Under the pieces are notes generated by a model. The model was given only the letters and a program-made list of their open reading frames with translations, made no database searches and was not told where the DNA came from. Below, in pieces: positions 7,127 through 30,029 of a stretch of DNA of 64,000 nt. Origin of the DNA: a virus (Duplodnaviria > Caudoviricetes); the IMG/VR virus record IMGVR_UViG_3300024493_000235, positions 64,001-128,000 of that record; one strand, 5' to 3'. The stretch's first letter is position 1. Each line of letters opens with the position of its first letter. The translations under genes were made by a program, and so were the position numbers.

Positions 7127-8428
7127 ATGACAAAAGAAGATAAATATATAGTGAAAATGCTTGACTTACTTGAAAGAGATTCTCATTTAGATACACTTAC
7201 AAGGCCCATATTCTCCATCGTTCGAAATGATCCTAAACGTACAACATTTTCAAATAAGGGAATGCACTATACTTACTTAGCTACAATCCTTGATGAAAAC
7301 GGAAAAGTAATTATCGTAATAGACTATGACGGAGATCATTTCGGCAAAGATTACGCTATCGATATGAAAAAAGATATTCGTATCTCTTGCAGACCGAAAG
7401 GATCGAAGTTACTTGTACTCTTATCTAATATGCCGGAATTTCACGTTCAACAATGGATACTTAAATATTTACAGCAAGATGAAAAAACATTCTTCGAAGA
7501 TCGCTTTAAAACGTGGATATCAAGAGGATACTTTTGGTATAAAGATGTAAAAGATTTTAACACTCCCGATATTTTATTAAAAGATTGGAGCAACTTAAAA
7601 CATTTTACACCAAAAACAAGCGACACAAAGTCGTATTCAAATGTTATAAACGGAATTTCAAACATCGGAATGACCCTCATAAAATACTTTCATCCGTCGA
7701 TATATCGTTGTCGTATGAAAGACAGACAAAGCCCTGAAAATATATGGTACCACCAAGATAAAGATGGAAACTTTGATTTGTTGTTACAGATGTTTAATGA
7801 ACACAGAATGTATTTAGATTGGTTCATGTGTTACAGAGTGATCCAAATGTTTGAGACTACAGACGTTGCGCCAAGAATTCCGATATTAACTCCTTCACGA
7901 GCTAAACTATTGCTATATAAATATGCAGGAGAATTTAACGAAATCTTCAATCCATTTTCAGGATTCTCAAGCGTATTATTAGCCGCAACTTCTCTTGGAA
8001 AAAAATACCTTGGCTACGATATCAATCGTACAGTTGTGCACGAATCTCAATGCATGATAGAATGGTTTGAAAAACATAAAATTCCCATTGATGCACACGT
8101 TGACAGAAAAGACGCATTTATTGATAACGACAGCAATAACCCGTTTCAAAATACATCGAATACATACGGTTGTCTATTCTCGTGTCCTCCTAATGGAGAT
8201 ACAGAAATATATTATGACAACATGATACAAGAAGAATTCTCATCATCGTATTCCTGTGAACAATGGGTACAATGGTGTCTTGATACATACAAATGTAAAA
8301 GATACATCTTTGTTGTAGACTCTAGGTGTAATAAGTTTCAAGGATATGTACAAGAAATTCTTACAACTAAAAGAGTTTCAAGATATCCTTTTAGCACACA
8401 TGAGAAAGTGTTGGTGTTTGACAGGTAA
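7127..8428 (+). CDS. degenerate endonuclease-like + DNA methyltransferase-like fusion (paralogue A)
   Basis: IDYDGDHF; FNPFSGFS (motif I variant); SCPPN (motif IV variant); C-terminal HEKVLVFD shared with paralogue B. Confidence 0.7.
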   Translation: MTKEDKYIVKMLDLLERDSHLDTLTRPIFSIVRNDPKRTTFSNKGMHYTYLATILDENGKVIIVIDYDGDHFGKDYAIDMKKDIRISCRPKGSKLLVLLSNMPEFHVQQWILKYLQQDEKTFFEDRFKTWISRGYFWYKDVKDFNTPDILLKDWSNLKHFTPKTSDTKSYSNVINGISNIGMTLIKYFHPSIYRCRMKDRQSPENIWYHQDKDGNFDLLLQMFNEHRMYLDWFMCYRVIQMFETTDVAPRIPILTPSRAKLLLYKYAGEFNEIFNPFSGFSSVLLAATSLGKKYLGYDINRTVVHESQCMIEWFEKHKIPIDAHVDRKDAFIDNDSNNPFQNTSNTYGCLFSCPPNGDTEIYYDNMIQEEFSSSYSCEQWVQWCLDTYKCKRYIFVVDSRCNKFQGYVQEILTTKRVSRYPFSTHEKVLVFDR

Positions 8429-8441
8429 TGGAGGAAAACAC

Positions 8442-9503
8442 ATGATAGCAGACATAATTGTAGGTATGCAATACGGTTCGGAAGGGAAAGGTGCTTTTGT
8501 AAATCACGCATTACAAATGGAAACCGGTTATAATATGTCGATGAGAGTCCAGTCAACACAATCGGGACATACTATATATTTTAAAAATCAAAAATATATA
8601 ATGAGGTCCATTCCTTGTGCATGGGTAAACCCGAATGTCGAATTATTGCTAGGTCCCGGCGCTTTTACAGAAAGGGATATTCTTTTGGATGAAATAAAAA
8701 GTATAAATGGATCTCTTGGAGGAGATGTGCGCGATCGACTTTTTATAGACAAAAGAGTATTTGAAGTTGAGGACCGTGATAAGCGAAAAGAAGCAGATCA
8801 AAAACTTGATAGCAGAATTGGAAGCACAATTCACGGATCAGGTTCCGCACTAAACGAAAAAATATGGAGAAAACGCACAAGAGGTAATAAAAATTTTATC
8901 GAATGGTGCCTTGCAAATAAGATAAATGTCGTTGACACAATAGACCATATACAAAAAGGAACTCTTTTAATAGAAGGATGCCAGGGAGCTATGCTTTCTA
9001 TTCATACATCACCTTTTTATCCGTATGTAACATCCAGAGAAGCCACAGCTTCAGGAATCTTATCAGAATGTGGAATATCCCCACGTGATGTAAGAAATAT
9101 CTTTGGTGTCTTTCGTACATTGCCAATCAGAGTAGGAGGGAACTCAGGACCTACAGGATCAGTTGAAATTACTTGGGAAGAAGTTTCTAGGAGAGCAGGA
9201 TATAATGTAACACCAGAAAAGACTTCCGTTACTGGCAGAATTAGGCGTATCTTCGAGTTCTCATATGATGATATGGCTCACGCTATTAGAGTAAATAAAC
9301 CCACGCACTTAATTATGACCTTTGCAAATTACATCGCTCCTTGTTTTGGAATTGATTCATGGGACAAAATTGACATCAATTCCAAAAGAAACATAGATAC
9401 ATATACATCTGTAGTAAACAAGCTTTGCAAAAATATTACACCTAACAATACTTATGGTATTGTATCAATTAACACAAATCCAATTAATTGGATAGATATC
9501 TAA
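8442..9503 (+). CDS. purZ: PurZ-like adenylosuccinate synthetase family protein (2-aminoadenine pathway)
   Basis: GMQYGSEGKG (Ser in place of the PurA Asp), RTLPIRVGGNSG, TSVTGRIRR, TFANY; 353 aa from the ATG after GGAGG. Confidence 0.75.
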   Translation: MIADIIVGMQYGSEGKGAFVNHALQMETGYNMSMRVQSTQSGHTIYFKNQKYIMRSIPCAWVNPNVELLLGPGAFTERDILLDEIKSINGSLGGDVRDRLFIDKRVFEVEDRDKRKEADQKLDSRIGSTIHGSGSALNEKIWRKRTRGNKNFIEWCLANKINVVDTIDHIQKGTLLIEGCQGAMLSIHTSPFYPYVTSREATASGILSECGISPRDVRNIFGVFRTLPIRVGGNSGPTGSVEITWEEVSRRAGYNVTPEKTSVTGRIRRIFEFSYDDMAHAIRVNKPTHLIMTFANYIAPCFGIDSWDKIDINSKRNIDTYTSVVNKLCKNITPNNTYGIVSINTNPINWIDI

Positions 9504-9593
9504 TTGATAAATAAATAAAACCAAGGGGCCAAATGGCCCCTTGGAGTTTTTCTTTTGACTATTCGCCACCCGATGCTGGAAAGACGCTCATCA
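9504..9593 (+). repeat. relic duplicate of 11695-11767 joined to 11881-11898
   Basis: 38 bp identical between 9543-9580 and 11730-11767. Confidence 0.85.
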
Positions 9594-9653
9594 TTTTTAA
9601 AAATAAATTAGAATATATATAATAATGGTATATTAAATATAAGGAGAATACTT

Positions 9654-11705
9654 TTGAAAGATATGGAGCTTACATGCACTAAATGTAACAAAACATTTTC
9701 ATTAACACGTAACGCATTTTTGAAACGGCAATACAGAGGTGTCGATACATCTCTATGTCAATGGTGTAGTAAAGCACACACAGAATTCAAAGATCATATA
9801 TATGTGCCAAAGTCAGAAAATCATATTTGCCAAAAATGCGGTAAATCCTTTACACTTACAAGAAGTGCATTTAATAAACGGAAATGCAAAAAACAAGATA
9901 CTACATTATGCAATCCGTGCAGAACAACTCAAACTACTTCTGATCGTCACGGATATGCATCTCCGCTTGCAAATCCTAATATATTACAGAAAACAAAAGA
10001 TACAATGCAAGAAAAATACGGTACAACATACGCACTACAGATTAAAGACGTTGAGGGTGTAGGATATCAAAAAGCTGTCACAACATTTCAAGCTAATTAT
10101 CACACTAATGCAGCAAATCCGTTAATGCATGCAGAAACACTTGAAAAAATAAAAGCAACAAATGTGGATAGATATGGAGATGCTAACCCATTGAATAATC
10201 CTGAAGTCAGAGCAAAGCAACAACAAACAATGATTAAACTATATGGAGGAAAACCCCAAGCAGAATCGGAAGAATGTAGAAAAAGAGCACTAGAAGTATT
10301 TCGAACAAGATACGGTCAAAATTGTTATTTGCAGTCTGCTCATTTCTCTGAGAAGATGGTACTAAAATTTGGAACAAGATACCCACAACTTACAACTCAT
10401 AGTAGTAGCAAAGAAGAAAGACATGTGTTCAGCAAAATTGAAGAACTCTTTTATCACGGTTTACTTAAAAATTCCAAATATACATTTATTTACAATGATC
10501 GAGAAAAATATAAAAACAGTGCTTTATTCACTTTCTCTTATGGTGATACCGATCATCCGTGGGACGGAATAGTGCTCAACGAAGATTATAGTATTGCACT
10601 CGTAATCGATTATGATGGTGAATATTATCATGGCGATTATCCTGACTATGATGGCGTACATTCTTCAGAAGAAAGGGATTCTATCAGAATGAAATGTGTT
10701 CCTAAAGATGCTAAGATACTTATCATCTATAAAGATACTCAGGATTACATTAAAGATATCGTTGACATACTTGGTATGGATTACGACGAATGGCTTAATA
10801 AGTTATACAACTATTGTTGTGGTATCGATTTTCCATTCTATCACAATTATTATTACGAAAAACAACTTTTACACAGTTGGAAAGCGCTTGCACTATTTAC
10901 TCCTGAGAAATGTGATAAAAAATCGTGGACAAAGCTCACCCAAGGACGCTCTACACTAGGTGGAAAACTTATTAATTATTTTCACCCGTCTATTTATAAA
11001 TGTCACACCAAAGGAAAAATATCACCATATGATGCATGGTATCATACCGATGAAAATGGTAATCGTGATTTACTTCGTAAATGTATTCGTAATAGAAGTA
11101 TTTATGCAAATTCGTATAAACCATATCGGATACTGCAAGGTTTTAACATTTCTGATATTGCACGAAAAATAACTACATTTTCAGCATCCAGAGCAAAAAT
11201 GTTACTCATAAAATATGCGCAAGAATTTGACCAAATCTTTGATCCTTTTATGGGATTTTCCGGTCGTCTTCTTGGAACTGTGGCTCTTAAAAAAGCATAC
11301 ATAGGAAACGACATAAATAAAACCATTATACAAGAAGCAAAAAATCTTATTAGATGGTTTGAAAGGCATAACATCGAAAATAGAGTTATTTTGACAAACA
11401 ATGATATACAATCGATCCCAAAAGAATATTCGATGCATAACGACGAATGCTTGTTTACGTGTCCTCCATACAAAGATACCGAAATTTGGTACGACGAAGT
11501 ATCAAAGCGAGAGATTAGATCTAATATGACAGCGGAGCAATGGGTTGAATTTTGTCTTGACACATTTAACTGTAAAAGGTATATATTCGTCGTCGATTCA
11601 CGATGTAACAAGTACAACAGCAATGTACAAGAAATATTTGTTAATAGAAGATCTGCAAAATACCATGTAAATCTTCATGAAAAAGTACTTGTTTTTGATA
11701 AATAA
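9654..11705 (+). CDS. Zn-ribbon + YG repeats + endonuclease-like domain + amino-type DNA methyltransferase (paralogue B)
   Basis: CxxC pairs; KYG/RYG repeats; IDYDGEYYHG; FDPFMGFSGRLLG; TCPPY. Confidence 0.75.
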   Translation: MKDMELTCTKCNKTFSLTRNAFLKRQYRGVDTSLCQWCSKAHTEFKDHIYVPKSENHICQKCGKSFTLTRSAFNKRKCKKQDTTLCNPCRTTQTTSDRHGYASPLANPNILQKTKDTMQEKYGTTYALQIKDVEGVGYQKAVTTFQANYHTNAANPLMHAETLEKIKATNVDRYGDANPLNNPEVRAKQQQTMIKLYGGKPQAESEECRKRALEVFRTRYGQNCYLQSAHFSEKMVLKFGTRYPQLTTHSSSKEERHVFSKIEELFYHGLLKNSKYTFIYNDREKYKNSALFTFSYGDTDHPWDGIVLNEDYSIALVIDYDGEYYHGDYPDYDGVHSSEERDSIRMKCVPKDAKILIIYKDTQDYIKDIVDILGMDYDEWLNKLYNYCCGIDFPFYHNYYYEKQLLHSWKALALFTPEKCDKKSWTKLTQGRSTLGGKLINYFHPSIYKCHTKGKISPYDAWYHTDENGNRDLLRKCIRNRSIYANSYKPYRILQGFNISDIARKITTFSASRAKMLLIKYAQEFDQIFDPFMGFSGRLLGTVALKKAYIGNDINKTIIQEAKNLIRWFERHNIENRVILTNNDIQSIPKEYSMHNDECLFTCPPYKDTEIWYDEVSKREIRSNMTAEQWVEFCLDTFNCKRYIFVVDSRCNKYNSNVQEIFVNRRSAKYHVNLHEKVLVFDK

Positions 11706-11745
11706 AACCGAGAGGCCATTTGGCCCCTCGGAGTTTTTCTTTTGA

Positions 11746-12801
11746 CTATTCGCCACCCGATGCTGGAGCAGGATTAAAGCCTGCGGCCATACCATTCTCG
11801 TAGAAACCGGCAGCGCTGTATTGCGTAGCGGCTCCTTGTTGCGGTTCGAGACCTGCAACATTCGGAGCTGTATCATCAGTGCTAGAAAGACGTTCATCAA
11901 CACCGTGCCATACCGAAACACCGAGGTCGAAATTAGAATAGTTGTCAGCATAGAAATTACTCTTTTCGAGTATTACTGCGGCTAAGCTGTTGACAGCGTT
12001 GTTTTCATGGAAGATACCAAAGAACGGAATATCCAGTTCCATCGGAGAATGCTCCCCTTGAGTATACTCGAAGTGACTGTTGGGAACTTGGTTCGGGAAT
12101 GCGCCAAACCATATACAGGCAAACTCGATAGAGTCTAATCCGTAAGCACCGCCTGAGTTATCAGTTAATGCATAAAGGATTATACCTGAATGGTTAATCG
12201 GTGAGAAGCGCAGATTACTTCCGTCGAAGGTCTTACCATGGTATGTACCATAGCCAGAACCTAGATCCGAAATACCGGTTACCCAATATTTTGAAATCTT
12301 ACGGAACATTCCGCCTTGCGTTTCTTGGAATTTGAGATTGAAGTTATTATTCCCTTTCTTGATGCCGGTTGGAACGCTGTAGCTTTCTGCGTTATTACCG
12401 TAAGTAATTTCGGCAGTCTGCAATTCGTAGTTTCCGATACCAGAGAGTCCCTTACACATACGCTCAATCATCCTCTGGCTTAAGCCCCTAATTGAAGGCT
12501 CAAAGAAGCGAGGCATGGAAAGAGCCCAGACACGTCCATAGCCGCCAATGAATGGCTCAATAAAAGGAAGAGTGTCCTGGGTGACGTTGGGAACGCCAAG
12601 GAATATGTTGTTGTTTGCAAAGTCGGGAATTACGTTTCTTGTGTTATCCCAACCGCGAGGGGGAGATCCGCCCCAGTCTATTATGGTTGTTGCGTCGGTG
12701 TAATCTCCAGGAGCCGGGAAGGTTACTTCGGAAGTTCTAAGTCGTCTATCCTCGGCATTACTGCCTTGAACGACAGTTTTTCCATCAAATGTTACAGCCA
12801 T
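11746..12801 (-). CDS. putative tail tube protein
   Basis: 351 aa directly downstream of the sheath gene; tube-like FQE..G, YWVTGI, GAFP pattern; raised GC as in highly expressed genes. Confidence 0.7.
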   Translation of the reverse strand: MAVTFDGKTVVQGSNAEDRRLRTSEVTFPAPGDYTDATTIIDWGGSPPRGWDNTRNVIPDFANNNIFLGVPNVTQDTLPFIEPFIGGYGRVWALSMPRFFEPSIRGLSQRMIERMCKGLSGIGNYELQTAEITYGNNAESYSVPTGIKKGNNNFNLKFQETQGGMFRKISKYWVTGISDLGSGYGTYHGKTFDGSNLRFSPINHSGIILYALTDNSGGAYGLDSIEFACIWFGAFPNQVPNSHFEYTQGEHSPMELDIPFFGIFHENNAVNSLAAVILEKSNFYADNYSNFDLGVSVWHGVDERLSSTDDTAPNVAGLEPQQGAATQYSAAGFYENGMAAGFNPAPASGGE

Positions 12802-12812
12802 GTGTTACCTCC

Positions 12813-14996
12813 TTACCGTGCTGCCACGACGTAGAAGTTCCACGTCTGTATGAAGTCCGTAAACTTCATTTCGATATACAAGGACGCAGCATTATCGTAT
12901 TTGTCCTGCAGCGTCTGCTCTGTTTTGATGGTCATCCTTTCAACCGGGCCGTTCATCTGGAGGTATGCAAGGTCACGTCCTACTTTCTCTTTAGCTTTCA
13001 CCATTGCGATTTCGGGTTTTTCCTCAAAGCGCAGGTCGGTAAGGATTTGCCTTCCCACCCATATCGCTTCACATACAGCATGGCAATTGCGGATAACAGC
13101 GAGATAACTAAGACGTTTAAGATACATTGTCCTAACGCTCATAATGGCGTATTGATTGAGGCGTACTTCTTCAACGTAGTTCATCTGCTCTTTTATGAGC
13201 TCGGTCTTCTGGTCTTCATCAGGATACCAAGAAAGGCTTGTCATGGTTTGTAAGATACCCTTTTCGGTTCCCGCCATCAATCGGTTCGGACCATAGTTCG
13301 CACGAAGCCAAGGAAGCTTAAATGCGATATCGTAGCAATACGTAACGTCAATGTTGCGTCTGTTGTACGCATCCCACGCAACGCCTGATTGCGGCCACAA
13401 TGAAGACTGCCAATCCTGAAGACCGTTAAGAACAGTCTTCTTGTAATTGATGGCGGCAGAACAGCTTGCGATGAATCCGCAGTCGATATATGCCATAACA
13501 TCCAATCTTTTGCGGCAGAAATAAATCATTTCTTTCTTAACAGCATCGACGTTTGCGGCATCAATTACGGCCGATATTTGATACTTATACGGAGAAAGTA
13601 TATTGGAATCTATTTCTCCCGCATAAGCTCTCCTGAAGAGCTCGTTTTTAACGGCGTCATAGGCTTCGTCGGCTTCTTTCTTACTTGCGTAATACTTAAG
13701 GTTGTCATTTACAGACGGATCTTTTGTTCCAACGACGTAGCGATCCCTATCGAGATCCCCATCATCTCCACCAACAAAAAAGTTATCACTTGCAGAAAGA
13801 TCCATATCGGGTTGTTTCTTGTTGTCAAAGAAAACAAGGTCTTCTTCGGCGGGGTTTATAAACCTTACGTACGGTTTTCCACTTCTGTCAGCAAGAGAAA
13901 TAAAATCGATAAACCTCGGATCCTGTGCTTCAGAGAGAATAAGAGTTCCAGTGGCATCTTTTACTTCGTCACAGTAAGGCTCGAATTGCCTTTGCAAACT
14001 TTCCCATGTATCATCGGATGTGAGAATTCCAATGTTGTCAATTTTCTTGATGTAATCCGTATCGGTGATTTTGGTGTCGATGAATTCAGAAACTGTCCCT
14101 GTGGAATCCACTGCGTCAGGATTAAACGCTACGGATATTGTGCTTCCTGTGGCGGCAAGAGCGATATTTCCTTTATCATCCTTTTCAAAGATGCTGTAGA
14201 AATACCGTCTGCCATCTTCGAGATCTTCTTCCCTTGTTTGATCGAGAGTTAAAGATACCGAATAGTTGTTTCCGAATTTACCGGATCCGCGGAGTTTGAA
14301 AATTGTAAGATAATTGTTTGTCCATCCGTTACCGGCATCGGAAGTTGTTCCGTTAAGGCGCGTTAAAAGCTGCTTTAACATAAGGGGTTCTGAAAGGCCT
14401 AATGTGGCCATATTCAAGAAGCTATCGGGAACACCGCAAATTGTCGGGGATATCTTGAGAGTCGGAATCTGAAGATTGACATCACCCAATTCTTGGAAGT
14501 TGTCTGTTAAATAAACAGAACCTGCTACAGCGCCTCCAGCGGGGACGACAGTAGTTTCCACTGTGCATTTGTATAATTTGCCGTTAAATGACCCGATTTG
14601 ATTTAATTTGAATTCTTCGCCTTCGCCTATAAGTCTGGCCGAAGCGCTCGTAAGAGTAACTGTCGAGGGTTTTGTGCGAATATTAAGAACTGCAAACGCA
14701 GGTTTAGCATTATCTGCAGTAACCCGCAACCCTAGTAACGTCCCACCACCTTTCAGCCATTGAATGCCGTTATAGATGTGCTGTCCATCCCTTGTGATAC
14801 GCGGGACACCAGAACGCCGGACATAATCCGTTTCGTTAAGGAACCTTCGTACTTTACCGTCCATCCCTTTCTGTGAGATATACGGCTGGAATAAGACAAA
14901 CCCTATAGGGGTAGTCGTCACTTCATCCACGATCGAATTATCGATAATCGCGGTAGTTACTCTGGAGTGTATATAATTATTAGAGACATCAATCAT
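12813..14996 (-). CDS. putative tail sheath protein
   Basis: 727 aa; GGTLLGLRVT, GGDDG, RLDVMAYID and sheath-type C-terminus; late promoter upstream. Confidence 0.8.
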   Translation of the reverse strand: MIDVSNNYIHSRVTTAIIDNSIVDEVTTTPIGFVLFQPYISQKGMDGKVRRFLNETDYVRRSGVPRITRDGQHIYNGIQWLKGGGTLLGLRVTADNAKPAFAVLNIRTKPSTVTLTSASARLIGEGEEFKLNQIGSFNGKLYKCTVETTVVPAGGAVAGSVYLTDNFQELGDVNLQIPTLKISPTICGVPDSFLNMATLGLSEPLMLKQLLTRLNGTTSDAGNGWTNNYLTIFKLRGSGKFGNNYSVSLTLDQTREEDLEDGRRYFYSIFEKDDKGNIALAATGSTISVAFNPDAVDSTGTVSEFIDTKITDTDYIKKIDNIGILTSDDTWESLQRQFEPYCDEVKDATGTLILSEAQDPRFIDFISLADRSGKPYVRFINPAEEDLVFFDNKKQPDMDLSASDNFFVGGDDGDLDRDRYVVGTKDPSVNDNLKYYASKKEADEAYDAVKNELFRRAYAGEIDSNILSPYKYQISAVIDAANVDAVKKEMIYFCRKRLDVMAYIDCGFIASCSAAINYKKTVLNGLQDWQSSLWPQSGVAWDAYNRRNIDVTYCYDIAFKLPWLRANYGPNRLMAGTEKGILQTMTSLSWYPDEDQKTELIKEQMNYVEEVRLNQYAIMSVRTMYLKRLSYLAVIRNCHAVCEAIWVGRQILTDLRFEEKPEIAMVKAKEKVGRDLAYLQMNGPVERMTIKTEQTLQDKYDNAASLYIEMKFTDFIQTWNFYVVAAR

Positions 14997-22716: not shown

Positions 22717-22809
22717 TATAACATACGCCGCAAATGCGGCGTATGTTATTTTTTTGTTGCAATAATTTATTTAATTATATATAATAAAAATACACAGAGG
22801 AGATTTAAA

Positions 22810-23262: not shown

Positions 23263-23288
23263 AAATATTTTGAGTATATATCATCTAT

Positions 23289-23370
23289 ATGAGAAAATAT
23301 AGAGATTAGATTATTAAATCTTGAGTCGTTGACTCGTGTTAGTAACAATATCCTGTATAAGTATCAAAGG
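23289..23370 (+). ncRNA. structured leader motif, copy 3
   Basis: ATATAG...TCTT-GAGTC-GTT-GACTC-GTG...CTGTAT. Confidence 0.6.
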
Positions 23371-23377
23371 TTGTTAT

Positions 23378-23824: not shown

Positions 23825-23866
23825 ACGTATATGGAGACCAAAACGGGTCTCCATATATTATTTTTT

Positions 23867-24499
23867 TTACACTAAAGGATACTTAGCATTTTCTGGTCTA
23901 TCTGTTAATGCGAGTTTTCTTAAAGCAGCATTCCTGTCTACACCACCAGCTTCATCTGCTTGTTTTTCGGACCATCGAGTTTTGTAGTACCAATAGTGCC
24001 TATCGTATATACACCAAGCTACATGGAACCACCTATCCCACATGTTGCAAAACACCGAACTGTATACACCAACAGTTGGCAGGTATAGCCACCCTAATGT
24101 TTCTGATTGTCCTATTTTATGTCCTTTTTCATGTCGTATGGTATATAAATCATGGGCTGTATTTAAACAGATATATTTTCCCATTGAAAACCCTGAAACA
24201 TTACCAAGTATTTTATCATTTTTATGGGAACAATAATCTGCTACATAAATTTTAAAGCCGGTTAATTCTTCCATTCCGTATAGGAATTTTAATTCTCTCT
24301 GACTTAGCACAATAAGTCTTTCTTTCCATAAACGACTCATTCCATAACCCAATGCGTTCTGAGGTAATTGCCACACCCATTCAAATAAAAACTTACCAAC
24401 CTTTTTGGCGTAAAGTTTTATATAATCCAGTGCAGTTTTAAAAAATGGCAATATTTTGGTAGATAAAAATATACCGATTTTTGTAAATAGATTTTTCAT
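23867..24499 (-). CDS. late-expressed HExxH-containing protein
   Basis: WQLPQN, RHEKGH, LGWLYLP; late promoter 24513-24524 and GGAGG RBS. Confidence 0.65.
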   Translation of the reverse strand: MKNLFTKIGIFLSTKILPFFKTALDYIKLYAKKVGKFLFEWVWQLPQNALGYGMSRLWKERLIVLSQRELKFLYGMEELTGFKIYVADYCSHKNDKILGNVSGFSMGKYICLNTAHDLYTIRHEKGHKIGQSETLGWLYLPTVGVYSSVFCNMWDRWFHVAWCIYDRHYWYYKTRWSEKQADEAGGVDRNAALRKLALTDRPENAKYPLV

Positions 24500-24574
24500 A
24501 TATACCTCCATTTACAAAAATGTTTTTCTACGATCCTATCGTATCTACATAAATCTTAAATATATATCATATTA

Positions 24575-24655
24575 ATGAGAGATAAGATATTTAGATTATA
24601 ATGTCTTGGATCGTTGATCCGCGCATGTAACAAGTATATCTTATGATATCAAAGG
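24575..24655 (+). ncRNA. structured leader motif, copy 4
   Basis: ATAAGATAT...TCTT-GGATC-GTT-GATCC-GCG...ATATCTTAT. Confidence 0.6.
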
Positions 24656-24663
24656 TGATAATT

Positions 24664-25338
24664 ATGAAAATTAATAGCATGATGTTTCAAAAGAAACGTA
24701 TACCTCTTACATGTTTAAAAAGCATTGTTGACATGCATCAGAAAGCGTGGTCTTTCGATTTGGGATCTCCATTCCTAAATTGGATTGCGGTTCTTGTAAA
24801 AGTGTGCGATAAAAAGAACCGAAAGCACAATGTATGTGTTTTAACGTTTGATATGAGCGAATTAGATTGTAAAACACTTAAACTCAGAGTTGACGAACTT
24901 ATTGGTTTTGCTCTAGTGTACAATGCGAATAAGCCAAAACAGTACCACCCGATTTTATGTATGATATACTGGTTTTGTTATATCATACTCCTATTTTCAA
25001 AACATGGACGTGGGTGTCTACGATGGAGAAAAATGTTCGCGTCACATCAAGAAGCTGCCTTAACTCTAGGAAAACAAGCATTATTCGGTTTGACAAAAGG
25101 AAAAACTTCGGAAGGCCTCGTTATTGTTACAGACCCAAAATTTCAAAAACAAGGTGTGTACACAGGTATGATGAATGCGATATTCAAAAATATGAAAGGA
25201 TATTTTATATTTCACACATCGACAGATTGTACATACCAAGCACATAATCGTTTTGAATGTAAAAAGATTTTTGAGGTTCCAATGTTTTTCCCTGAAAAAG
25301 AAATAACGTTTATAATGTACAAGAAGCTCGAAGTCTAA
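24664..25338 (+). CDS. GNAT-like acetyltransferase
   Basis: VTDPKFQKQGVY resembles the acetyl-CoA-binding motif A. Confidence 0.5.
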   Translation: MKINSMMFQKKRIPLTCLKSIVDMHQKAWSFDLGSPFLNWIAVLVKVCDKKNRKHNVCVLTFDMSELDCKTLKLRVDELIGFALVYNANKPKQYHPILCMIYWFCYIILLFSKHGRGCLRWRKMFASHQEAALTLGKQALFGLTKGKTSEGLVIVTDPKFQKQGVYTGMMNAIFKNMKGYFIFHTSTDCTYQAHNRFECKKIFEVPMFFPEKEITFIMYKKLEV

Positions 25339-25350
25339 AGGAGGCGCAGC

Positions 25351-25521
25351 ATGGAAAAGATAAGATGTAAGAAATGCGGCAGAGCGCTGAAGTCCTGTGA
25401 AAAGAATTTATGTCCGTATCACCGAAACTTACTTGATAGAAAAATCAAGGTGTTCACAATAGTATGCGGTGTCGCTGTTATCATCTTTATAATCATCGGT
25501 GCTATTTCAAAGATGATGTAA
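25351..25521 (+). CDS. small Zn-ribbon + transmembrane protein (56 aa, not in the ORF track)
   Basis: AGGAGG RBS; CKKCG...CPYH then a hydrophobic segment. Confidence 0.65.
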   Translation: MEKIRCKKCGRALKSCEKNLCPYHRNLLDRKIKVFTIVCGVAVIIFIIIGAISKMM

Positions 25522-25537
25522 TGCATAGGAGCGAAGT

Positions 25538-25795
25538 ATGAAAAAGAAAGTTCAGTATTACACCATTCAAGAAACGTGCAAAATAATGCATATAAGTTTA
25601 AGTACTGCAACACGTGGATTACGAGCATTAAAAGATAAACCTTGGACTGAGGCTGTTCGCTTAAGAAATCGTCGTGTACTAATACCTCGGAAAGTTGTTG
25701 ACAATCTTTCAGACATACATCCGTACATTCCAATGAAGTATAAAAAGAAAAAGGCAGAAATAAAGCCGATTAAAAGAAAAAGTACAAAACGATAA
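25538..25795 (+). CDS. excisionase/MerR-like HTH DNA-binding protein
   Basis: YYTIQETCKIMHISLSTATR. Confidence 0.6.
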   Translation: MKKKVQYYTIQETCKIMHISLSTATRGLRALKDKPWTEAVRLRNRRVLIPRKVVDNLSDIHPYIPMKYKKKKAEIKPIKRKSTKR

Positions 25796-25884
25796 ATCAT
25801 TGGGGAGCTATTAGCTCCCCAATGTTATTTTTTTTAATATACATTTTACCTATATATAATTAACTTAAGATAAGGAGAATAAAA

Positions 25885-26289
25885 ATGATAAAAAACATAT
25901 ATGTCAATGATGATGACGACAGTGAGTTTGTCGGCGATGTATTTGTTGAATTACAACAACACAAGATACGTAATTTTAATGCTTTTCGTAAAAAGAAAAA
26001 TCATGATCCACACCTTTATATTGAAACGGTATACGATCTTTCAAAACAACCGATTCCAGATAGAGATGATGTACGATCTGGTATTATGATACCAGACGAA
26101 ACATTTTTCATACGCGTTCCAAAAGAAGAGTTGGATAAAGGTTTAATATCAACTGTCATATTAGTAAAACTTTTCGAGCATTATATCGACAGTAAGATAC
26201 TTAAAAAGCTTTTACCAAATGAAGAGAATCTGCGAGACATGATTAATACCGCCTTAAGGACAAGCAAAATGAGGTGGATTTATACATGA
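25885..26289 (+). CDS. hypothetical protein
   Basis: Promoter at 25851 plus RBS. Confidence 0.7.
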   Translation: MIKNIYVNDDDDSEFVGDVFVELQQHKIRNFNAFRKKKNHDPHLYIETVYDLSKQPIPDRDDVRSGIMIPDETFFIRVPKEELDKGLISTVILVKLFEHYIDSKILKKLLPNEENLRDMINTALRTSKMRWIYT

Positions 26290-26316
26290 TTCATACATAA
26301 CTCTGGAGGGCACTAT

Positions 26317-27075
26317 ATGGCTAAAACGAAAAAATGCACTTGTTGCAAAAAAATAAAGCCCTTATCAGAATTTCACAAACAAAAAGCCTATAAGGACGGA
26401 TATCGTAGCCAATGTAAAAAATGTTTACGTAAAAAAGATAAACATCGATACAATAACGATCCGGAGGTTATTAAAAAGAGAAAAGAAAAAGAAGCGCAAA
26501 AGAAGTTATTTCAGCAGCATTTGAAAAAACGATGCGCATGTTGTAAAAAAATAAAACTTTTATCTGCGTTCAGTAAAAATTCGGCAACAAAAGACGGATA
26601 TCAATATTTGTGTAAAAAATGCACAAGTGAAAAAGATAAACGTCGATACAATAACGATCCAGAAGTTATTGCAAAAAGGAAAGAAAAGGAGGTACGAAAA
26701 GAGTTATTTCAGTATTCGAAAAAATACTGTACCTATTGTAAACAGATAAAACCTTTATCTGCATTTCGCAAAGATTCAAGAACAAAAGATGGATACCGAT
26801 ATTGGTGTAAAGAATGCGTAAATACATATCAGCAAACACCAAAATGTAGAGAACGACGACGTAATGGTGCAAAAATATATTACAAAACCCACAAAAATAA
26901 TTGTAGCACATTACGCAGACTGGCAAAGGCATACTTTAAAGAATTAGGACTGGATCCTAAAAATGTAAGCGAAGAATTTCTGCTATTAAAAGCAGAGCAT
27001 ATAAGATTACGACGACAACTCAAATCAAAGGAGAAGAAAAATGGCAGTTCCAAAACCGGAGTTAAGCGTGGATGA
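26317..27075 (+). CDS. triple Zn-finger basic protein (homing-endonuclease-type N-terminal repeats, no nuclease motif seen)
   Basis: Three copies of CxxCK-IKxLS-F-K...DGY...CK-C. Confidence 0.65.
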   Translation: MAKTKKCTCCKKIKPLSEFHKQKAYKDGYRSQCKKCLRKKDKHRYNNDPEVIKKRKEKEAQKKLFQQHLKKRCACCKKIKLLSAFSKNSATKDGYQYLCKKCTSEKDKRRYNNDPEVIAKRKEKEVRKELFQYSKKYCTYCKQIKPLSAFRKDSRTKDGYRYWCKECVNTYQQTPKCRERRRNGAKIYYKTHKNNCSTLRRLAKAYFKELGLDPKNVSEEFLLLKAEHIRLRRQLKSKEKKNGSSKTGVKRG

Positions 27076-27280
27076 TGTTTATGAGACTATCGCAGAACAG
27101 ATACAAAAACTAAGAGCGAAAACGGTGAAAACAAGCGACATCGCAACAGCGAATGCTATTGCAAACCAGATCGGAAAAGGCTTAAAAGCTGCAGCTCTTC
27201 AGATCAAATATACCGAGTTAAAGAATACTGCAGCAGGAAAAAATATGTCGGTACCTATTGTCGAACCAAGGAAAAAGTAA
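27041..27280 (+). CDS. hypothetical protein
   Basis: AAGGAG RBS; terminator follows. Confidence 0.7.
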   Translation: MAVPKPELSVDDVYETIAEQIQKLRAKTVKTSDIATANAIANQIGKGLKAAALQIKYTELKNTAAGKNMSVPIVEPRKK

Positions 27281-27317
27281 ATTTATCCAGGAGCCTTAAG
27301 GCTCCTGGATTTGTGTT

Positions 27318-27827
27318 TTATTCTGTCCCTATTTTTTCTTTGAGTTTCTGCGAATAATCTGATATTTCATCTATTATGTTAGACACTTTATCGCAGAACC
27401 CTTTGGGCCGATTGGTCAACGTTGTATACTGATCCATATCGACATTGTCGTAAAAGTCTGGATCCAAAGCGTCAGGTACAACAAATCGTATTTCTTTGGG
27501 GAAAGGAAATACGACGCTATAGCAATCCTTTAAGAAAGCTTTTAATGATACAAGACGAATAAGTTCAATTACGACATCAGAATATGTATAAATACACGCA
27601 GGAAATGCGTGATGTACATATAACTTTTCTCCGAAATCAAGTAATTTCTTTTCAATCTCGTCGGGATGAATTGGAAGTCCTCCGTTAACTTCGATGTTAG
27701 ATTCCCTTAACGTTTGAGTAACTTCAGGCCAAAATAATTCCGACTCAAAGAAATGTACACCCTCCCATTTTTTCAAATCAAAATTCTTTGGAACTGAACC
27801 CCAAAATACATATAATTTTTTATCCAT
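27318..27827 (-). CDS. DUF3696-like / ABC fragment protein, paralogue 4
   Basis: LYVFWG, WPE..PIHP, YTYSDVVIELIR, PKGFCD; minus-strand promoter 27846-27855. Confidence 0.6.
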   Translation of the reverse strand: MDKKLYVFWGSVPKNFDLKKWEGVHFFESELFWPEVTQTLRESNIEVNGGLPIHPDEIEKKLLDFGEKLYVHHAFPACIYTYSDVVIELIRLVSLKAFLKDCYSVVFPFPKEIRFVVPDALDPDFYDNVDMDQYTTLTNRPKGFCDKVSNIIDEISDYSQKLKEKIGTE

Positions 27828-27980
27828 TTTTGTCTCCTTACCTCAATGATATATATTTATTTCAAAGGATCATACATAACAATCATAGATATTTTTCATA
27901 GTTATGATAGACCTAATATATCGTAAATACAAAGGTTAGGAGTATATATCATTTTGATATGTAAAAGGAGAATTACAAAA

Positions 27981-30029
27981 ATGGCAAGACCGAGAAGTTT
28001 TGAGCCAGGAAAATCTAAGCATTGCAAGTACCGGACTTTTGGGAAAACGTGCACATCGTGTGGAAAAACGTTTTTAATCACTAGCCGCAACATCTTACGT
28101 CGTCAAGGAAGAAAACGGCCGACAGATATATGCGAGGTATGTCTTAGGGCCCAAGACAACCAAACAAGATTTGGAGAAAACTACGAAGAATGGAAAGATG
28201 ACGTAAACGCAAAAAGAAAGAAAACCGTACAAAAACATTACGGCGTTGATCATCAAATGCGCAGCAAAAAAGTTAAACAGAAAGTTGTTGCAACAACACG
28301 TAAATGCTACGGAGTTGACAATGTTGCCCATTGTCCAGAAATCGTCGAAAAACGAAAAGCGACAATGAGGAAACGACATGGTGTGGATTATTCGTTATCA
28401 TCGGCAGTTCTAAGAAAAAAGGCACGACAAACGACGTTTAAAAGATTTGGCGTAGAAAATGTAGCATTACTTCCTGAGAATCAAGCAAAATTGCATTCTG
28501 CAGAAACACAAGCAAAACGTAAAGCTACTATGTTAACACGATTTGGTGTCGACTCGATGTTTAAGTTGAAAAATTTTCACGACATGAGAAGAAAAGGATG
28601 CATCAGAAATAGCGGAGAACCAGAACCTCAACTTAGAAAAAGTGGAAAGTCAGAAGCAGAAAAATCTATCACATCGAAACTGATGTTTATTTGCACAGAA
28701 GGGTTGTTAAAAGACAAACACCTTGTTGTATGCGATGATCCAAAAGATAATACAACCTGTATTACTGTACATGGTGTATTATATAGCCATAGTTGGGACA
28801 TCACAATCAGAGATCAATCTGGCAGTTTAATTCTTGTAATAGATTACGACGGTGATTATTATCATGGGGAAAAGTTTGCTGATTATGATGCTATCATACA
28901 AGCCGAATACAAAGATACCGAACGGTTTATGACAATACCAAAAGGTGTAATGTGGCACATCATAAATGAAAACGGTTTCGATACAGCCATTGAAGATGTC
29001 GTAAAGATTCTTGGATACGATTACTCCGGATTTTTGAAAAGCCTGTATGACTTTGCATGCTCCATTCAATTCCCATTCTGCAAAGACTATCCAGAATACT
29101 ATAATGATAAAACGTTATTAGGAAGTTGGCATAGACTCTGTAATTATGGCGAAGAAGACATAACAAAACCGCGATATAAATATTACAACTATGACAAACT
29201 TGAAAAGGTTGCGGACAAGTCCCGTACAGGAGGGAAACTTATTAACTATTTCCACCCATCTATTTACAAATGTAGATCTCGTGATAAGCCATCTCCATAT
29301 GAAGCATGGCACCATGTTGATGAAAATGGGGATCGCAACTTGTTAATGAAGGCAATAAAAAACCGCATGATATATTCTGCACGATATCAGCCGTTTAGAA
29401 TTCTTCAAGGCTTTTCTAATTCGTATATTGCACCGAAAGTAACGGTATTTTCTCCATCACGAGCACGACTCTATTTGCACAAATATGCACGAAAATTCAA
29501 TACAGTATTTGATCCGTTTATGGGTTATTCAGGTCGTATGCTTGGTGCATTATCTCTTGAAAAAAATTACATCGGATCGGATATAAATCCGACCATTTTT
29601 GAAGAAGCTGGAGACATCGTCAAATGGTTGGACAAAAATAAAGAACTCGCCGCCGATGTTTGCATTACATGCAAGGATATTTTAACATACGAAAGAGGTA
29701 CACAATACGAATGCTTATTCACATGTCCTCCGTATAAAGATCTTGAAATATGGTGGGATGATTTGACACAGACGGAAATACGATCAAACAATACTGCTGA
29801 AGAATGGGTTATGTATTGTCTTGAAATGTTTGAGTGTACGCGATACATTTTTGTTGTTGATGCTCGTTGTAACAAGTTTCAACCATACGTTGTTCATATT
29901 TGTAATTCTATAATAGAAAACAAATATAACTCGTATAAACGGGAAAAAGTTCTTGTTATAGATTTTGAAGACAGGAACAGAATGGGGTTTGGACAACAAA
30001 ATTTCAAATTTAGTATCGTTAAAGAATAA
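27981..30029 (+). CDS. Zn-ribbon + YG repeats + endonuclease-like domain + DNA methyltransferase (paralogue C)
   Basis: HYGVD/RFGVE repeats; IDYDGDYYHG; FDPFMGYSGRMLG; TCPPY. Confidence 0.75.
   Translation: MARPRSFEPGKSKHCKYRTFGKTCTSCGKTFLITSRNILRRQGRKRPTDICEVCLRAQDNQTRFGENYEEWKDDVNAKRKKTVQKHYGVDHQMRSKKVKQKVVATTRKCYGVDNVAHCPEIVEKRKATMRKRHGVDYSLSSAVLRKKARQTTFKRFGVENVALLPENQAKLHSAETQAKRKATMLTRFGVDSMFKLKNFHDMRRKGCIRNSGEPEPQLRKSGKSEAEKSITSKLMFICTEGLLKDKHLVVCDDPKDNTTCITVHGVLYSHSWDITIRDQSGSLILVIDYDGDYYHGEKFADYDAIIQAEYKDTERFMTIPKGVMWHIINENGFDTAIEDVVKILGYDYSGFLKSLYDFACSIQFPFCKDYPEYYNDKTLLGSWHRLCNYGEEDITKPRYKYYNYDKLEKVADKSRTGGKLINYFHPSIYKCRSRDKPSPYEAWHHVDENGDRNLLMKAIKNRMIYSARYQPFRILQGFSNSYIAPKVTVFSPSRARLYLHKYARKFNTVFDPFMGYSGRMLGALSLEKNYIGSDINPTIFEEAGDIVKWLDKNKELAADVCITCKDILTYERGTQYECLFTCPPYKDLEIWWDDLTQTEIRSNNTAEEWVMYCLEMFECTRYIFVVDARCNKFQPYVVHICNSIIENKYNSYKREKVLVIDFEDRNRMGFGQQNFKFSIVKE

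What the first reader, a model, noticed from the sequence alone, without database searches (positions are those of the whole stretch)
7127..30029. Three endonuclease-like/DNA-methyltransferase fusions, two parked at the ends of core structural genes
Seen: the genes at 9654 and 27981 share the architecture Zn ribbons, (K/R)YG repeats, SK.E...WD...IDYDGxYYHG...D..R, then a methyltransferase with FDPFMG.SGR.LG and an unusual TCPPY motif IV (canonical D/N/S-PPY). Each has its own early-type promoter and converges on the 3' end of the tail tube or capsid gene. The 7127 copy lacks the N-terminal repeats and has FNPFSGFSS and SCPPN, so it is probably inactive or repurposed. Established: the N-terminal half resembles free-standing phage homing endonucleases of the Vsr/DUF559-like fold (IEFDGxYWH). 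Inference: a selfish single-chain homing-plus-self-methylation element, or a sequence-targeted methylase, possibly working with PurZ in a DNA-modification locus.
Basis: partly seen in the sequence, partly recalled or inferred. Interest (0 to 1): 0.75.

Follow-up and report, generated by a model that had tools for sequence, protein, structure and literature searches.

The report
Homing endonucleases fused to DNA methyltransferase
An uncultured giant termite-gut phage carries three copies of a selfish DNA-cutting gene (a Vsr-like homing endonuclease) fused to a DNA-methylating domain; two look active and sit against the tail-tube and capsid genes, one is decayed, and they belong to a large unnamed phage family that comes and goes between related phages.

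Summary
Three paralogues (7127-8428, 9663-11705, 27981-30029; 34-40% identical) share a Vsr-like nuclease and a C-terminal methyltransferase. The two long copies add Zn ribbons and DUF7487 repeats.

- **Folds:** the nuclease model best matches a Neisseria endonuclease-like protein (3hrl), Bax1, I-Bth0305I and Vsr (Z 7.2-8.0). The C-domain model is a class I SAM methyltransferase (pLDDT 92.9, Z up to 14.9).
- **Motifs:** motif I is intact, the motif order is permuted, and motif IV is TC(P/S)PY across the family.
- **Family size:** 908 representatives, almost all unnamed, with 1-3 copies per phage.
- **Neighbours:** capsid, tail tube, terminase, NrdD, RNA polymerase and other homing endonucleases.
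- **Mobility:** at one tail-tube site, 16 of 64 related phage loci are occupied and 48 are empty. One locus holds a deleted remnant.
- **This window:** a 70-nt duplication (terminator plus tube gene end) brackets the 9663 gene.
- **7127 copy:** it has lost key residues of both domains.
- **PurZ:** absent from 26 other carrier phages, so that link is not supported.

Best reading: free-standing EDxHD-type homing endonucleases whose methyltransferase probably protects the carrier's own target site. The scan has noted similar nuclease-methylase fusions on other DNA. No biochemistry exists.

The parts
7096..7108 (+). Promoter-like motif ATATATATAATAA upstream of the 7127 gene
   Evidence: Six matches in the window against 0.47 expected. 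An identical copy lies at 9613-9625.
7127..8428 (+). Degenerate paralogue (P0001, 433 aa): a Vsr-like domain remnant plus a methyltransferase-like domain, with no Zn ribbon or DUF7487 repeats. It shares one terminator-bounded unit with the PurZ-like gene (about 8442-9503).
   Evidence: 38% identical to P0005 over 407 aa. It mismatches 22 of 67 conserved C-domain columns (family median 3), the worst of 77 members. Substitutions include D527N, G534S, R535V, T599S and Y603N. In the nuclease domain D301L, H323G and D339K are changed and D328 is deleted. Terminators lie at 7038-7060 and 9521-9544.
9511..9580 (.). Left copy of a 70-nt direct repeat: a relic terminator plus the last codons of the tail-tube gene. 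It is followed at 9574-9593 by an 18/20 match to tube-gene positions 11880-11899.
   Evidence: the repeat finder family D1, 93% identity, spacing 2187 nt. Sequences read directly.
9613..9625 (+). Promoter-like motif ATATATATAATAA upstream of the 9663 gene
9663..11705 (+). Full-length fusion gene (P0005, 680 aa). Two Zn ribbons (aa 5-86, nt 9675-9920), DUF7487 repeats (about aa 95-245), a Vsr-like nuclease (about aa 245-375, nt 10395-10787) and a helical subdomain plus methyltransferase (aa 380-680, nt 10800-11702).
   Evidence: Pfam DUF7487 at 1.1e-15 and PHROG 'homing endonuclease' families. AF2 models and fold searches. Nuclease residues D301, D316, D318, H323, D339 and R342, and methyltransferase residues D527, G531, G534, R535, D550 and TCPPY, are all present.
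11698..11767 (.). Right copy of the 70-nt repeat: the functional bidirectional terminator (11708-11731) plus the real 3' end of the tube gene
11746..12801 (-). Virion structural protein (putative tail tube), convergent with P0005. The tail sheath follows at 12813-14996 (-).
   Evidence: phrog_21257 at 2.5e-32 and sheath phrog_19666 at 1.4e-48. The ortholog in the relative is 74% identical and carries a faint Phage_TTP_14 hit.
27981..30029 (+). Full-length fusion gene (P0006, 682 aa): one Zn ribbon, about five repeats, a Vsr-like nuclease and a methyltransferase. It converges on the capsid gene.
   Evidence: DUF7487 at 6.7e-18. 40% identical to P0005 over 650 aa. Conserved residues are intact.
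30035..30063 (.). Bidirectional hairpin terminator between P0006 and the capsid gene
30083..31870 (-). Major head protein gene, convergent with P0006
   Evidence: phrog_20655 at 1.9e-31. About 20-22% identity to AR9/PBS1-type major head proteins.

Best explanation
The 9663 and 27981 genes are free-standing homing endonuclease genes of the Vsr-like 'EDxHD' (I-Bth0305I / Hef) kind that carry a C-terminal DNA amino-methyltransferase. Shown: the domain folds, the conserved catalytic residues, the family's patchy and mobile distribution next to highly conserved phage genes, and an insertion scar at the 9663 gene. Inferred mechanism: the variable N-terminal Zn ribbons and DUF7487 repeats read a long target in a conserved gene (here the tube or capsid gene end) of a phage that lacks the element. 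The Vsr-like domain then cuts it, and repair from the carrier genome copies the element in. The same DNA-binding module tethers the highly conserved methyltransferase, which has no variable specificity domain. It would methylate the cognate site in the carrier's own genome, so a target that cannot mutate freely because it lies in a structural gene becomes immune to self-cleavage. The 7127 gene is a decayed or repurposed copy that has lost its DNA-binding repeats and the catalytic residues of both domains. Its position before the PurZ-like gene is local, not a family trait. The confidence given is for the whole statement. Taken separately, I put the selfish homing-type nature at about 0.8, an active DNA methyltransferase at about 0.7, and the self-immunity role at about 0.45.
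For: - **Nuclease fold.** The model has pLDDT 85.9. An exhaustive structure search ranks the endonuclease-like protein 3hrl (Z 8.0, 85 aligned), Bax1 (7.4), I-Bth0305I 3r3p (Z 7.3), Vsr 1cw0 (Z 7.2) and the FASTKD4 RAP domain (7.1) first. Some family members hit Pfam Vsr and MTES_1575.
- **Nuclease residues.** D/E316 96%, D318 87%, H323 82%, D339 85% and R342 87% are conserved. This matches the E-D-H-D scheme of Taylor et al. 2011, PMC3239194.
- **Methyltransferase.** The model has pLDDT 92.9. Z is 14.9 to METTL5 and 13.5 to aTrm11, with KsgA, TGS1 and HemK also high. A family profile hits the N4-cytosine DNA methyltransferase 8s9n at 1.2e-5. Thirty of 77 members hit PF01555, and several relatives pass its gathering score. 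D527, P528, G531, G534, R535, D550, C600, P602 and Y603 are 94-100% conserved.
- **Mobility.** The immediate neighbours of about 50 family loci are major head protein (11), tail tube (5), NrdD (4), RNA polymerase beta, head protease, terminase and other homing or HNH endonucleases. Among 64 evaluable phage loci that share one tail-tube protein, 16 carry a family member directly after it and 48 do not.
- **Occupied versus empty pairs.** One occupied/empty pair has 87-97% identical flanks. One locus keeps a deleted remnant at 94% nt identity. Some copies have in-frame stops, and copy number is 1-3 per genome.
- **This window.** A 70-nt duplication of the terminator plus tube gene end brackets the 9663 cassette.
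- **Close relative.** Tube, sheath and capsid proteins are 74%, 63% and 65% identical. The occupants of the same two sites are only 36-42% identical to the window's copies, yet 89% identical to each other.
Against:
- Structure Z-scores for the nuclease (7-8) are only middling.
- The window's own proteins fall below Pfam's methyltransferase threshold (17.9-19.1 bits against 26.7).
- Motif IV carries Cys where every characterised amino-methyltransferase has D, N or S, so the chemistry and the target base are unknown.
- The closest solved folds are RNA methyltransferases, not DNA ones.
- In the one lineage closest to this phage both sites are occupied in both phages. Presence/absence is therefore shown for the family, not for these two loci.
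- A single chain that both cuts and protects the same site competes with itself. The self-immunity role is inference only.
Confidence: 0.55

Rival explanations
1. A phage-borne single-chain restriction-modification weapon. The methyltransferase marks the whole phage genome at a short motif, and the nuclease degrades unmarked host or superinfecting phage DNA. This is what Iyer et al. 2021 proposed for Mom-REase fusions of jumbo phages. Mobility would be secondary.
For: The order nuclease, helical region, methyltransferase recalls Type IIG enzymes, and BpuSI appears among the nuclease fold matches (Z 6.8). Iyer et al. predict exactly this logic for REase-Mom fusions (PMC7824862). The methyltransferase domain is much better conserved (46% mean column identity) than the rest (24%), as expected for a fixed short specificity.
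Against: A general weapon would not need 1-3 divergent copies parked beside capsid, tube, terminase and NrdD genes. Nor would it show site-specific presence/absence with decayed remnants. The long, variable, modular N-terminal DNA-binding region is typical of homing enzymes with long targets.
Confidence: 0.17
2. The methyltransferase domain does not transfer methyl groups. It would serve as a DNA-binding, base-flipping clamp that helps the endonuclease recognise or distort its target.
For: Cys replaces the canonical D/N/S of motif IV. No variable specificity domain is present. The closest folds are small RNA methyltransferases.
Against: The SAM-binding residues (D527, G531, G534, D550) and the motif IV Pro and Tyr are 94-100% conserved across 77 members. 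They are lost only in the decayed 7127 copy. That pattern indicates selection on catalysis.
Confidence: 0.1
3. Domesticated core genes of this phage lineage, for example with a role in DNA processing, packaging or regulation near the structural operons, and no longer mobile.
For: Both sites are occupied in the only close relative. The 7127 copy is kept as an open frame despite losing its catalytic residues.
Against: Occupants at the same sites are far more diverged than their neighbours (36-42% against 63-74%). The relative's two copies are 89% alike, which points to recent copying. The 70-nt duplication scar and the sporadic family distribution also argue against fixation.
Confidence: 0.06
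4. Part of a PurZ-centred DNA-modification locus that methylates 2-aminoadenine-containing DNA.
For: The 7127 copy and the PurZ-like gene share one terminator-bounded unit, and the 9663 gene follows directly.
Against: None of 26 other carrier phage records has a PurZ homologue, and the control was positive. The copy next to PurZ is the degenerate one. No MazG or HD (MazZ/DatZ-type) domain was found in the genome.
Confidence: 0.03

Closest known systems
EDxHD / Vsr-like homing endonucleases: I-Bth0305I of Bacillus phage 0305phi8-36 (PDB 3R3P) and Hef-type enzymes of T4-related phages (Taylor et al. 2011, PMC3239194)
   Same: Both have a Vsr-like PD-(D/E)XK catalytic domain with conserved acidic and His residues, preceded by a modular N-terminal DNA-binding region. 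Both are phage-borne, lie next to or inside conserved genes, and are patchily distributed.
   Different: This family adds a roughly 300-aa C-terminal methyltransferase. The DNA-binding part is Zn ribbon plus DUF7487 repeats rather than NUMOD/HTH. The genes are free-standing rather than intron-encoded, and there is no sequence-level hit to 3R3P.
Beta-class N6-adenine / N4-cytosine DNA methyltransferases (Pfam PF01555; M.MboIIA, M.RsrI, M.PvuII; N4CMT 8s9n), including the circularly permuted jumbo-phage forms noted by Iyer et al. 2021
   Same: The motif X-I region (..FS..RA..L...Y....D.(I/V)FDPF.G.SG) and a T-x-P-P-Y motif IV resemble T(S/D)PPY. Relatives pass the Pfam threshold.
   Different: The motif order is permuted, X-I-II-III then IV-VIII. 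Motif I has one extra residue (G-F/Y-S-G-R). Motif IV has Cys, TC(P/S)PY. The domain is fused to a nuclease.
Jumbo-phage Mom-REase fusion proteins (Iyer, Anantharaman, Krishnan, Burroughs, Aravind 2021, PMC7824862)
   Same: Both are phage proteins that join a restriction-endonuclease-fold nuclease to a DNA-base-modifying domain. They are predicted to protect self DNA while attacking other DNA, and they occur in multiple copies per jumbo phage.
   Different: The modifying domain here is a SAM methyltransferase, not a GNAT/Mom acyltransferase.
Type IIG / IIL single-chain restriction-modification enzymes (BpuSI, MmeI, Eco57I)
   Same: One chain carries an N-terminal PD-(D/E)XK nuclease followed by a helical linker and an amino-methyltransferase. 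BpuSI appears among the nuclease fold matches (Z 6.8).
   Different: There is no C-terminal target recognition domain, and recognition is presumably by N-terminal repeats. The nuclease subfamily differs (Vsr-like). These are phage-borne genes with homing-type distribution, not cellular defence genes.
dcm-vsr gene pair of E. coli (from general knowledge)
   Same: A methyltransferase is associated with a Vsr-fold endonuclease.
   Different: There the methyltransferase is a C5-cytosine enzyme and Vsr repairs T:G mismatches. Here the context is mobile and homing-like, and the methyltransferase is of the amino-methyltransferase type.

Membership tests
EDxHD / Vsr-like homing endonucleases | Vsr-like PD-(D/E)XK catalytic fold | tested here: met
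   AF2 model with pLDDT 85.9. Top matches of an exhaustive PDB search: 3hrl Z 8.0 (rmsd 2.4, 85 aligned), I-Bth0305I 3r3p Z 7.3 (rmsd 3.7, 90 aligned), Vsr 1cw0 Z 7.2 (rmsd 3.6, 111 aligned). The Z values are middling, but the top of the list is coherent.
EDxHD / Vsr-like homing endonucleases | Conserved Glu, Asp, His and Asp catalytic residues | tested here: met
   D/E316, D318, H323 and D339 (plus R342) are 82-96% conserved and present in P0005 and P0006. A helix-1 Glu (KxE) is only about 50% conserved. The correspondence to Vsr D51, H69 and D97 is by sequence pattern and secondary-structure position, not by superposition. P0001 lacks H323 and D339.
EDxHD / Vsr-like homing endonucleases | Mobile, sporadic distribution at conserved target genes | tested here: met
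   16 occupied and 48 empty loci among 64 tail-tube loci, an occupied/empty pair with 87-97% identical flanks, and a deleted remnant. Neighbours are capsid, tube, terminase, NrdD and RNA polymerase genes. A 70-nt duplication scar flanks P0005. For this phage's own two loci only one relative exists, and both its sites are occupied.
EDxHD / Vsr-like homing endonucleases | Site-specific double-strand cleavage that drives inheritance of its own gene | not testable with these tools
   Needs enzyme assays and mixed infections.
PF01555-type (beta-class) DNA amino-methyltransferases | Class I Rossmann SAM-methyltransferase fold | tested here: met
   Model pLDDT 92.9. Z 14.9 to METTL5 6h2u (rmsd 3.4, 178 aligned) and Z 13.5 to aTrm11 5e71.
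PF01555-type (beta-class) DNA amino-methyltransferases | Motif I (D-P-F-x-G-S-G) and the motif II acidic residue for SAM binding | tested here: met
   DPF(S/M)G(F/Y)SGR with D527 99%, P528 100%, G531 95% and G534 97%, plus D550 96%. There is a one-residue insertion relative to GSG.
PF01555-type (beta-class) DNA amino-methyltransferases | Motif IV (D/N/S)-P-P-(Y/F) | tested here: not met
   The family has TCPPY (101 of 150), TCSPY (26) and TSPPY (2), with Cys 96% conserved. It works like the motif but is not the canonical one.
PF01555-type (beta-class) DNA amino-methyltransferases | Pfam gathering score and beta-class motif order (IV..VIII, TRD, X, I..III) | tested here: not met
   Window proteins score 12.2-19.1 bits against a 26.7 cut-off, over motif X-I only. 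Six relatives score 27.4-33.4 bits. The order here is X-I-II-III then IV, which is permuted.
Type IIG / IIL restriction-modification enzymes | C-terminal target recognition domain shared by the nuclease and the methyltransferase | tested here: not met
   The protein ends about 75 aa after motif IV with the last strands of the Rossmann fold. No TRD follows.
PurZ / Z-genome modification module | Co-occurrence of the family with PurZ | tested here: not met
   0 of 26 carrier phage records, 12 of them at least 90% complete, have a PurZ homologue. The control in the window's own genome was positive.

The most novel reading that the evidence does not exclude
The nearly invariant Cys in motif IV (TC(P/S)PY), at the place where amino-methyltransferases have D/N/S and C5-methyltransferases have their catalytic Cys, may mark a different chemistry or target. 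Examples would be covalent catalysis on a pyrimidine, or modification of a non-canonical base. Homing endonucleases of several unrelated nuclease classes would then have recruited this one methyltransferase clade as a portable self-immunity module. An Atlas lead also shows LAGLIDADG and DUF723 fusions. That would amount to a mobile, long-target 'restriction-modification in one chain'.
Probability: 0.12. Interest if true: 0.8.

Novelty: new variant of a known kind. Interest (0 to 1): 0.55.

Why it matters
Homing endonucleases are usually thought to avoid cutting their own genome because the insertion or a sequence change destroys the target. A large family (over 900 representative clusters) in which the nuclease is fused to a well-conserved methyltransferase suggests another solution. 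Epigenetic self-immunity would let the element sit beside targets in capsid and tail genes that cannot mutate freely.

If this holds, the proteins are natural single-chain enzymes that bring both a cut and a methyl mark to a long DNA site. That is of interest for phage-phage competition, for understanding methylation patterns in uncultured jumbo phages, and as scaffolds for targeted methylation or cleavage. The unusual Cys-containing motif IV is a direct biochemical question. The family is essentially unannotated ('hypothetical protein' or DUF7487).

Tried and rejected
- **Nucleotide search.** Megablast of 7000-12000 against cultured phages found nothing.
- **Protein search of cultured phages.** tblastn found only partial matches: repeats or nuclease in Asteriusvirus-like and Salmonella phages, and the C-domain in Lak megaphages. 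No full-length fusion was found.
- **Lak-A2 homologue.** The 634-aa protein has a different N-terminal half that the nuclease profile does not recognise.
- **Sequence searches of the nuclease domain.** A profile search against PDB gave only noise, and Foldseek gave no match better than E 0.013. Only the exhaustive VIA search placed the fold.
- **NCBIfam.** Nothing useful.
- **Close relatives in IMG/VR.** Searches with the window's tube and capsid proteins found none, so presence/absence at the window's own loci could be examined in one NCBI relative only.
- **Scars at the other two genes.** No direct-repeat scar was found around the 27981 or 7127 genes.
- **Base composition.** It gives no sign of foreign origin. 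The fusions match the genome (about 0.35-0.37 GC), and it is the structural genes that are GC-richer.
- **Literature.** Searches for DUF7487, CPPY and homing endonuclease-methyltransferase fusions found no description of this architecture.
- **Longer homologues.** That search listed 724 clusters, nearly all unnamed, and did not itself show the LAGLIDADG fusions that the Atlas suggests. These remain a lead.

Full report
**1. What is in the sequence**

The window is bases 64001-128000 of a 268,442-bp IMG/VR virus record, estimated 91% complete. Earlier notes of this scan describe it as an uncultured termite-gut jumbo phage. Its major head protein is 20-22% identical to those of AR9/PBS1-type jumbo phages.

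Three ORFs fit the finding:
- 7127-8428 (P0001, 433 aa).
- 9654-11705, with the database gene call starting at 9663 (P0005, 680 aa).
- 27954-30029, with the gene call starting at 27981 (P0006, 682 aa).

They are paralogues. P0005 is 40% identical to P0006 over 650 aa and 38% identical to P0001 over 407 aa. P0006 is 34% identical to P0001. The genome holds exactly these three copies.

The gene between the first two copies, most likely starting at about 8442, is a PurZ-like adenylosuccinate synthetase homologue (Pfam 6e-38; phrog_1211 1.6e-60).

P0005 converges on a virion structural gene, the putative tail tube at 11746-12801 (-), which is followed by the tail sheath. P0006 converges on the major head gene at 30083-31870 (-). 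A bidirectional hairpin terminator lies in each gap.

A motif, TATATATAATAA, occurs six times in the window against 0.47 expected. It precedes the 7127 and 9663 genes but not the 27981 gene.

**2. Domain anatomy**

*N-terminal half.* It hits Pfam DUF7487 (1e-15 and 7e-18) and PHROG families labelled 'homing endonuclease'.

*Nuclease domain.* A 67-sequence alignment of the middle domain (A3) gave an AF2 model with pLDDT 85.9.
- Foldseek gave only weak matches, though these were enriched in restriction-endonuclease-fold proteins.
- An exhaustive comparison with 48,161 PDB chains ranked these first: the endonuclease-like protein 3hrl (Z 8.0), Bax1 (7.4), the homing endonuclease I-Bth0305I (3r3p, Z 7.3), Vsr (1cw0, Z 7.2) and the Vsr-like RAP domain of FASTKD4 (7.1).
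- Individual family members hit Pfam Vsr and MTES_1575.
- Conserved residues in P0005 numbering are D301 87%, D/E316 96%, D318 87%, H323 82%, D339 85%, R342 87% and K351 73%.
- These fall on a strand end, a loop and a helix, as do the Asp, His and Asp of the 'EDxHD' scheme described for I-Bth0305I and Vsr (PMC3239194).

*C-terminal domain.* The last 300 aa (alignment A2, 77 sequences) gave a very confident model (pLDDT 92.9, pTM 0.91).
- It has a helical subdomain followed by a class I Rossmann methyltransferase.
- The best structural matches are exocyclic-amine methyltransferases: METTL5 (Z 14.9), aTrm11 (13.5), KsgA/Dim1 (about 13), TGS1 (13.0) and HemK (12.4).
- By sequence profile the best solved relative is an N4-cytosine DNA methyltransferase (8s9n, 1.2e-5). 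It matches over motif X-I and, separately and out of order, over TSPPY against TCPPY. aTrm11 matches colinearly (0.004).
- The window proteins are below Pfam's PF01555 threshold. However, 30 of 77 family members hit PF01555 and six relatives pass the threshold.

I therefore read the domain as a circularly permuted relative of the beta-class N6A/N4C DNA methyltransferases. Iyer et al. 2021 noted permuted M.MboIIA-like methylases in jumbo phages (PMC7824862).
- SAM-binding residues are nearly invariant: D527 99%, P528 100%, G531 95%, G534 97%, R535 99%, D550 96%.
- Motif IV is TCPPY in 101 of 150 retrieved members, TCSPY in 26 and TSPPY in 2.
- The Cys is thus the family signature, not an oddity of this phage. 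I found no paper that mentions it.

**3. The 7127 copy**

P0001 lacks the Zn ribbons and repeats. At 67 conserved C-domain columns it mismatches 22, against a family median of 3, the worst of 77 members. The changes include D527N, G534S, R535V, T599S and Y603N.

In the nuclease domain D301, H323 and D339 are substituted and D328 is deleted.

The frame is still open despite about 60% divergence from its paralogues. That leaves open a non-catalytic role.

**4. The family and how it behaves**

*Size.* An exhaustive HMMER search with the C-domain found 908 representative proteins at E up to 1e-3, and 199 at E up to 1e-30. Most are 500-830 aa with the domain at the C-terminus. A second search listed 724 clusters of 542 aa or more, almost all without any name and many on contigs of 200-560 kb.

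*Architecture.* In IMG/VR, 78 loci were recovered. About two thirds of the proteins match the nuclease profile, and the others I checked still carry DUF7487. Copy number is 1-3 per phage genome, and some copies contain in-frame stops.

*Neighbours.* I scanned 88 immediate neighbours of about 50 distinct family loci with PHROGs. The commonest were:
- major head protein (9 + 2)
- tail tube (5)
- NrdD (4)
- head-tail adaptor (4)
- RNA polymerase beta (3 or more)
- head maturation protease
- large terminase
- other homing or HNH endonucleases

This is the classic neighbourhood of free-standing homing endonuclease genes.

*Direct test of mobility.* I took the tail-tube protein that precedes the fusion in five loci and collected 78 related loci without regard to the fusion.
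- Of 64 loci with enough downstream sequence, 16 have a family member directly after the tube gene and 48 do not.
- The gene that follows the fusion in one occupied locus is the gene that follows the tube directly in 17 empty loci.
- L108 (occupied) and L110 (empty) have 87-97% identical flanks around a 2.1-kb against 0.7-kb replacement.
- L160 keeps a multiply deleted remnant of the gene that is intact in L122, at 94% nt identity.

Gain, decay and loss are therefore all seen.

**5. Evidence at the window's own loci**

*Insertion scar.* Following a lead from another first-stage note (e1-5511449), I confirmed a 70-nt direct repeat at 9511-9580 and 11698-11767 (93% identical, 2187 nt apart). It comprises the terminator and the last codons of the tube gene, and it brackets the promoter-like motif and the P0005 gene.
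- The left copy continues with an 18/20 match to tube-gene positions 11880-11899, read.
- This looks like the relic of a displaced tube 3' end that later lost about 113 nt between TGCT(G/A)GA microhomologies.
- This is what is expected if the cassette entered the end of the tube gene and brought a replacement gene end with it.
- No such scar is seen at the other two genes.

*The only close relative.* It is a phage present in NCBI assemblies GCA_001577415.1, GCA_001577405.1 and GCA_001577435.1. It has a fusion gene converging on the tube gene (P0007) and another converging on the capsid gene.
- Tube, sheath and capsid proteins are 74%, 63% and 65% identical to the window's.
- The fusion proteins are only 36-42% identical to the window's copies.
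- They are 89% identical to each other.

So the two sites are conserved in this small lineage, while their occupants have been copied or replaced. A purely vertical history would make same-site copies in the two phages each other's closest relatives, and they are not.

**6. PurZ**

None of 26 other phage records carrying the family, 12 of them at least 90% complete, has a PurZ homologue. The same query finds the window's own gene.

The copy beside PurZ is the degenerate one. Neither a MazG nor an HD domain, the families of the usual PurZ partners MazZ and DatZ (from my own knowledge), was found in the genome. The proposed link to a PurZ modification locus is not supported.

**7. Mechanism**

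*Shown.* The folds, the conserved catalytic residues in both domains, the mobility signatures and the local scar.

*Inferred.*
- The variable N-terminal modules give long-target recognition.
- The Vsr-like domain cuts element-free alleles, and repair copies the gene in.
- The methyltransferase has no variable specificity domain and is far better conserved than the rest (46% against 24% mean column identity). It is tethered to the same site and methylates it in the carrier genome, which prevents self-cleavage.
- This would explain why the family favours constrained structural-gene targets.

*Rivals.* A restriction-modification-like weapon, as Iyer et al. proposed for the analogous Mom-REase fusions; a non-catalytic clamp; domesticated core genes; and a PurZ module. 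They are weighed in their own sections of this report.

*Atlas lead.* The ESM Atlas places the same methyltransferase fold in viral clusters fused to DUF7487, LAGLIDADG_2, DUF723 and ParB_N. I could not verify this. If true, unrelated homing nucleases recruited the same domain.

**8. Comparison, novelty and limits**

The nuclease half fits the EDxHD/Hef kind. The methyltransferase half works like a PF01555 enzyme but fails two of its defining features, the canonical motif IV and the motif order.

The fusion is not described in the papers I could search. Earlier reports of this scan found similar nuclease-methylase and nuclease-Mom fusions in other genomes. I rate it a new variant of a known kind.

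No biochemistry exists for any member. Mobility at the window's own two loci rests on one scar and one relative.

Noticed in passing
window 26317-27075 (+): A 252-aa protein with repeated endonuclease VII / HNH-type and Lar-like zinc modules (PHROG 1035, 2633 and 5558, E down to 1e-27). It lies 0.9 kb upstream of the capsid-adjacent fusion gene and may be another homing-type endonuclease in the same hotspot.
   Followed up: no
window 8442-9503 (+): A PurZ-like gene (GSEGKG in place of PurA's GDEGKG) is present. No MazG or HD domain, the usual MazZ/DatZ partners, was detected anywhere in the 268-kb genome, so whether the DNA really carries 2-aminoadenine is open.
   Followed up: partly
window 2839, 7096, 9613, 22775, 52501 (+) and 58134 (-): The motif (A/G/T/C)TATATATAATAA occurs six times against 0.47 expected, each time 15-40 nt before a gene start. 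It is a likely phage promoter element. Other notes of the scan link it to a repeated leader hairpin.
   Followed up: partly
L004/L163/L164/L166 (NCBI GCA_001577415.1, contig LSQA01000018.1): The closest relative shares rearranged synteny blocks with this genome. On the same contig as its tail and head genes it also encodes a reverse transcriptase, an NAD-dependent ligase, and FliM- and FliG-like proteins. The FliM-like gene had no tblastn match (E <= 1e-10) in the window's genome.
   Followed up: no
L167:8614-8678 and L004:8050-9432: In the relative, both fusion copies are preceded by an AAA-type ATPase gene of about 460 aa. The duplicated or copied unit may therefore be a two-gene module. The homologue in the window's genome lies far away, at about G000 265.8-267.1 kb.
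   Followed up: partly
window 12001-14000 and 30001-32000: The structural genes (sheath/tube, capsid) are markedly GC-richer (0.45-0.47) than the rest of the window (0.33-0.41).
   Followed up: no
L162 (Prevotella phage Lak-A2, MK250019.1 505299-507203): Lak megaphages encode a 634-aa protein with this methyltransferase domain (31-32% identity). Its unrelated N-terminal half of about 370 aa has no Pfam hit.
   Followed up: partly
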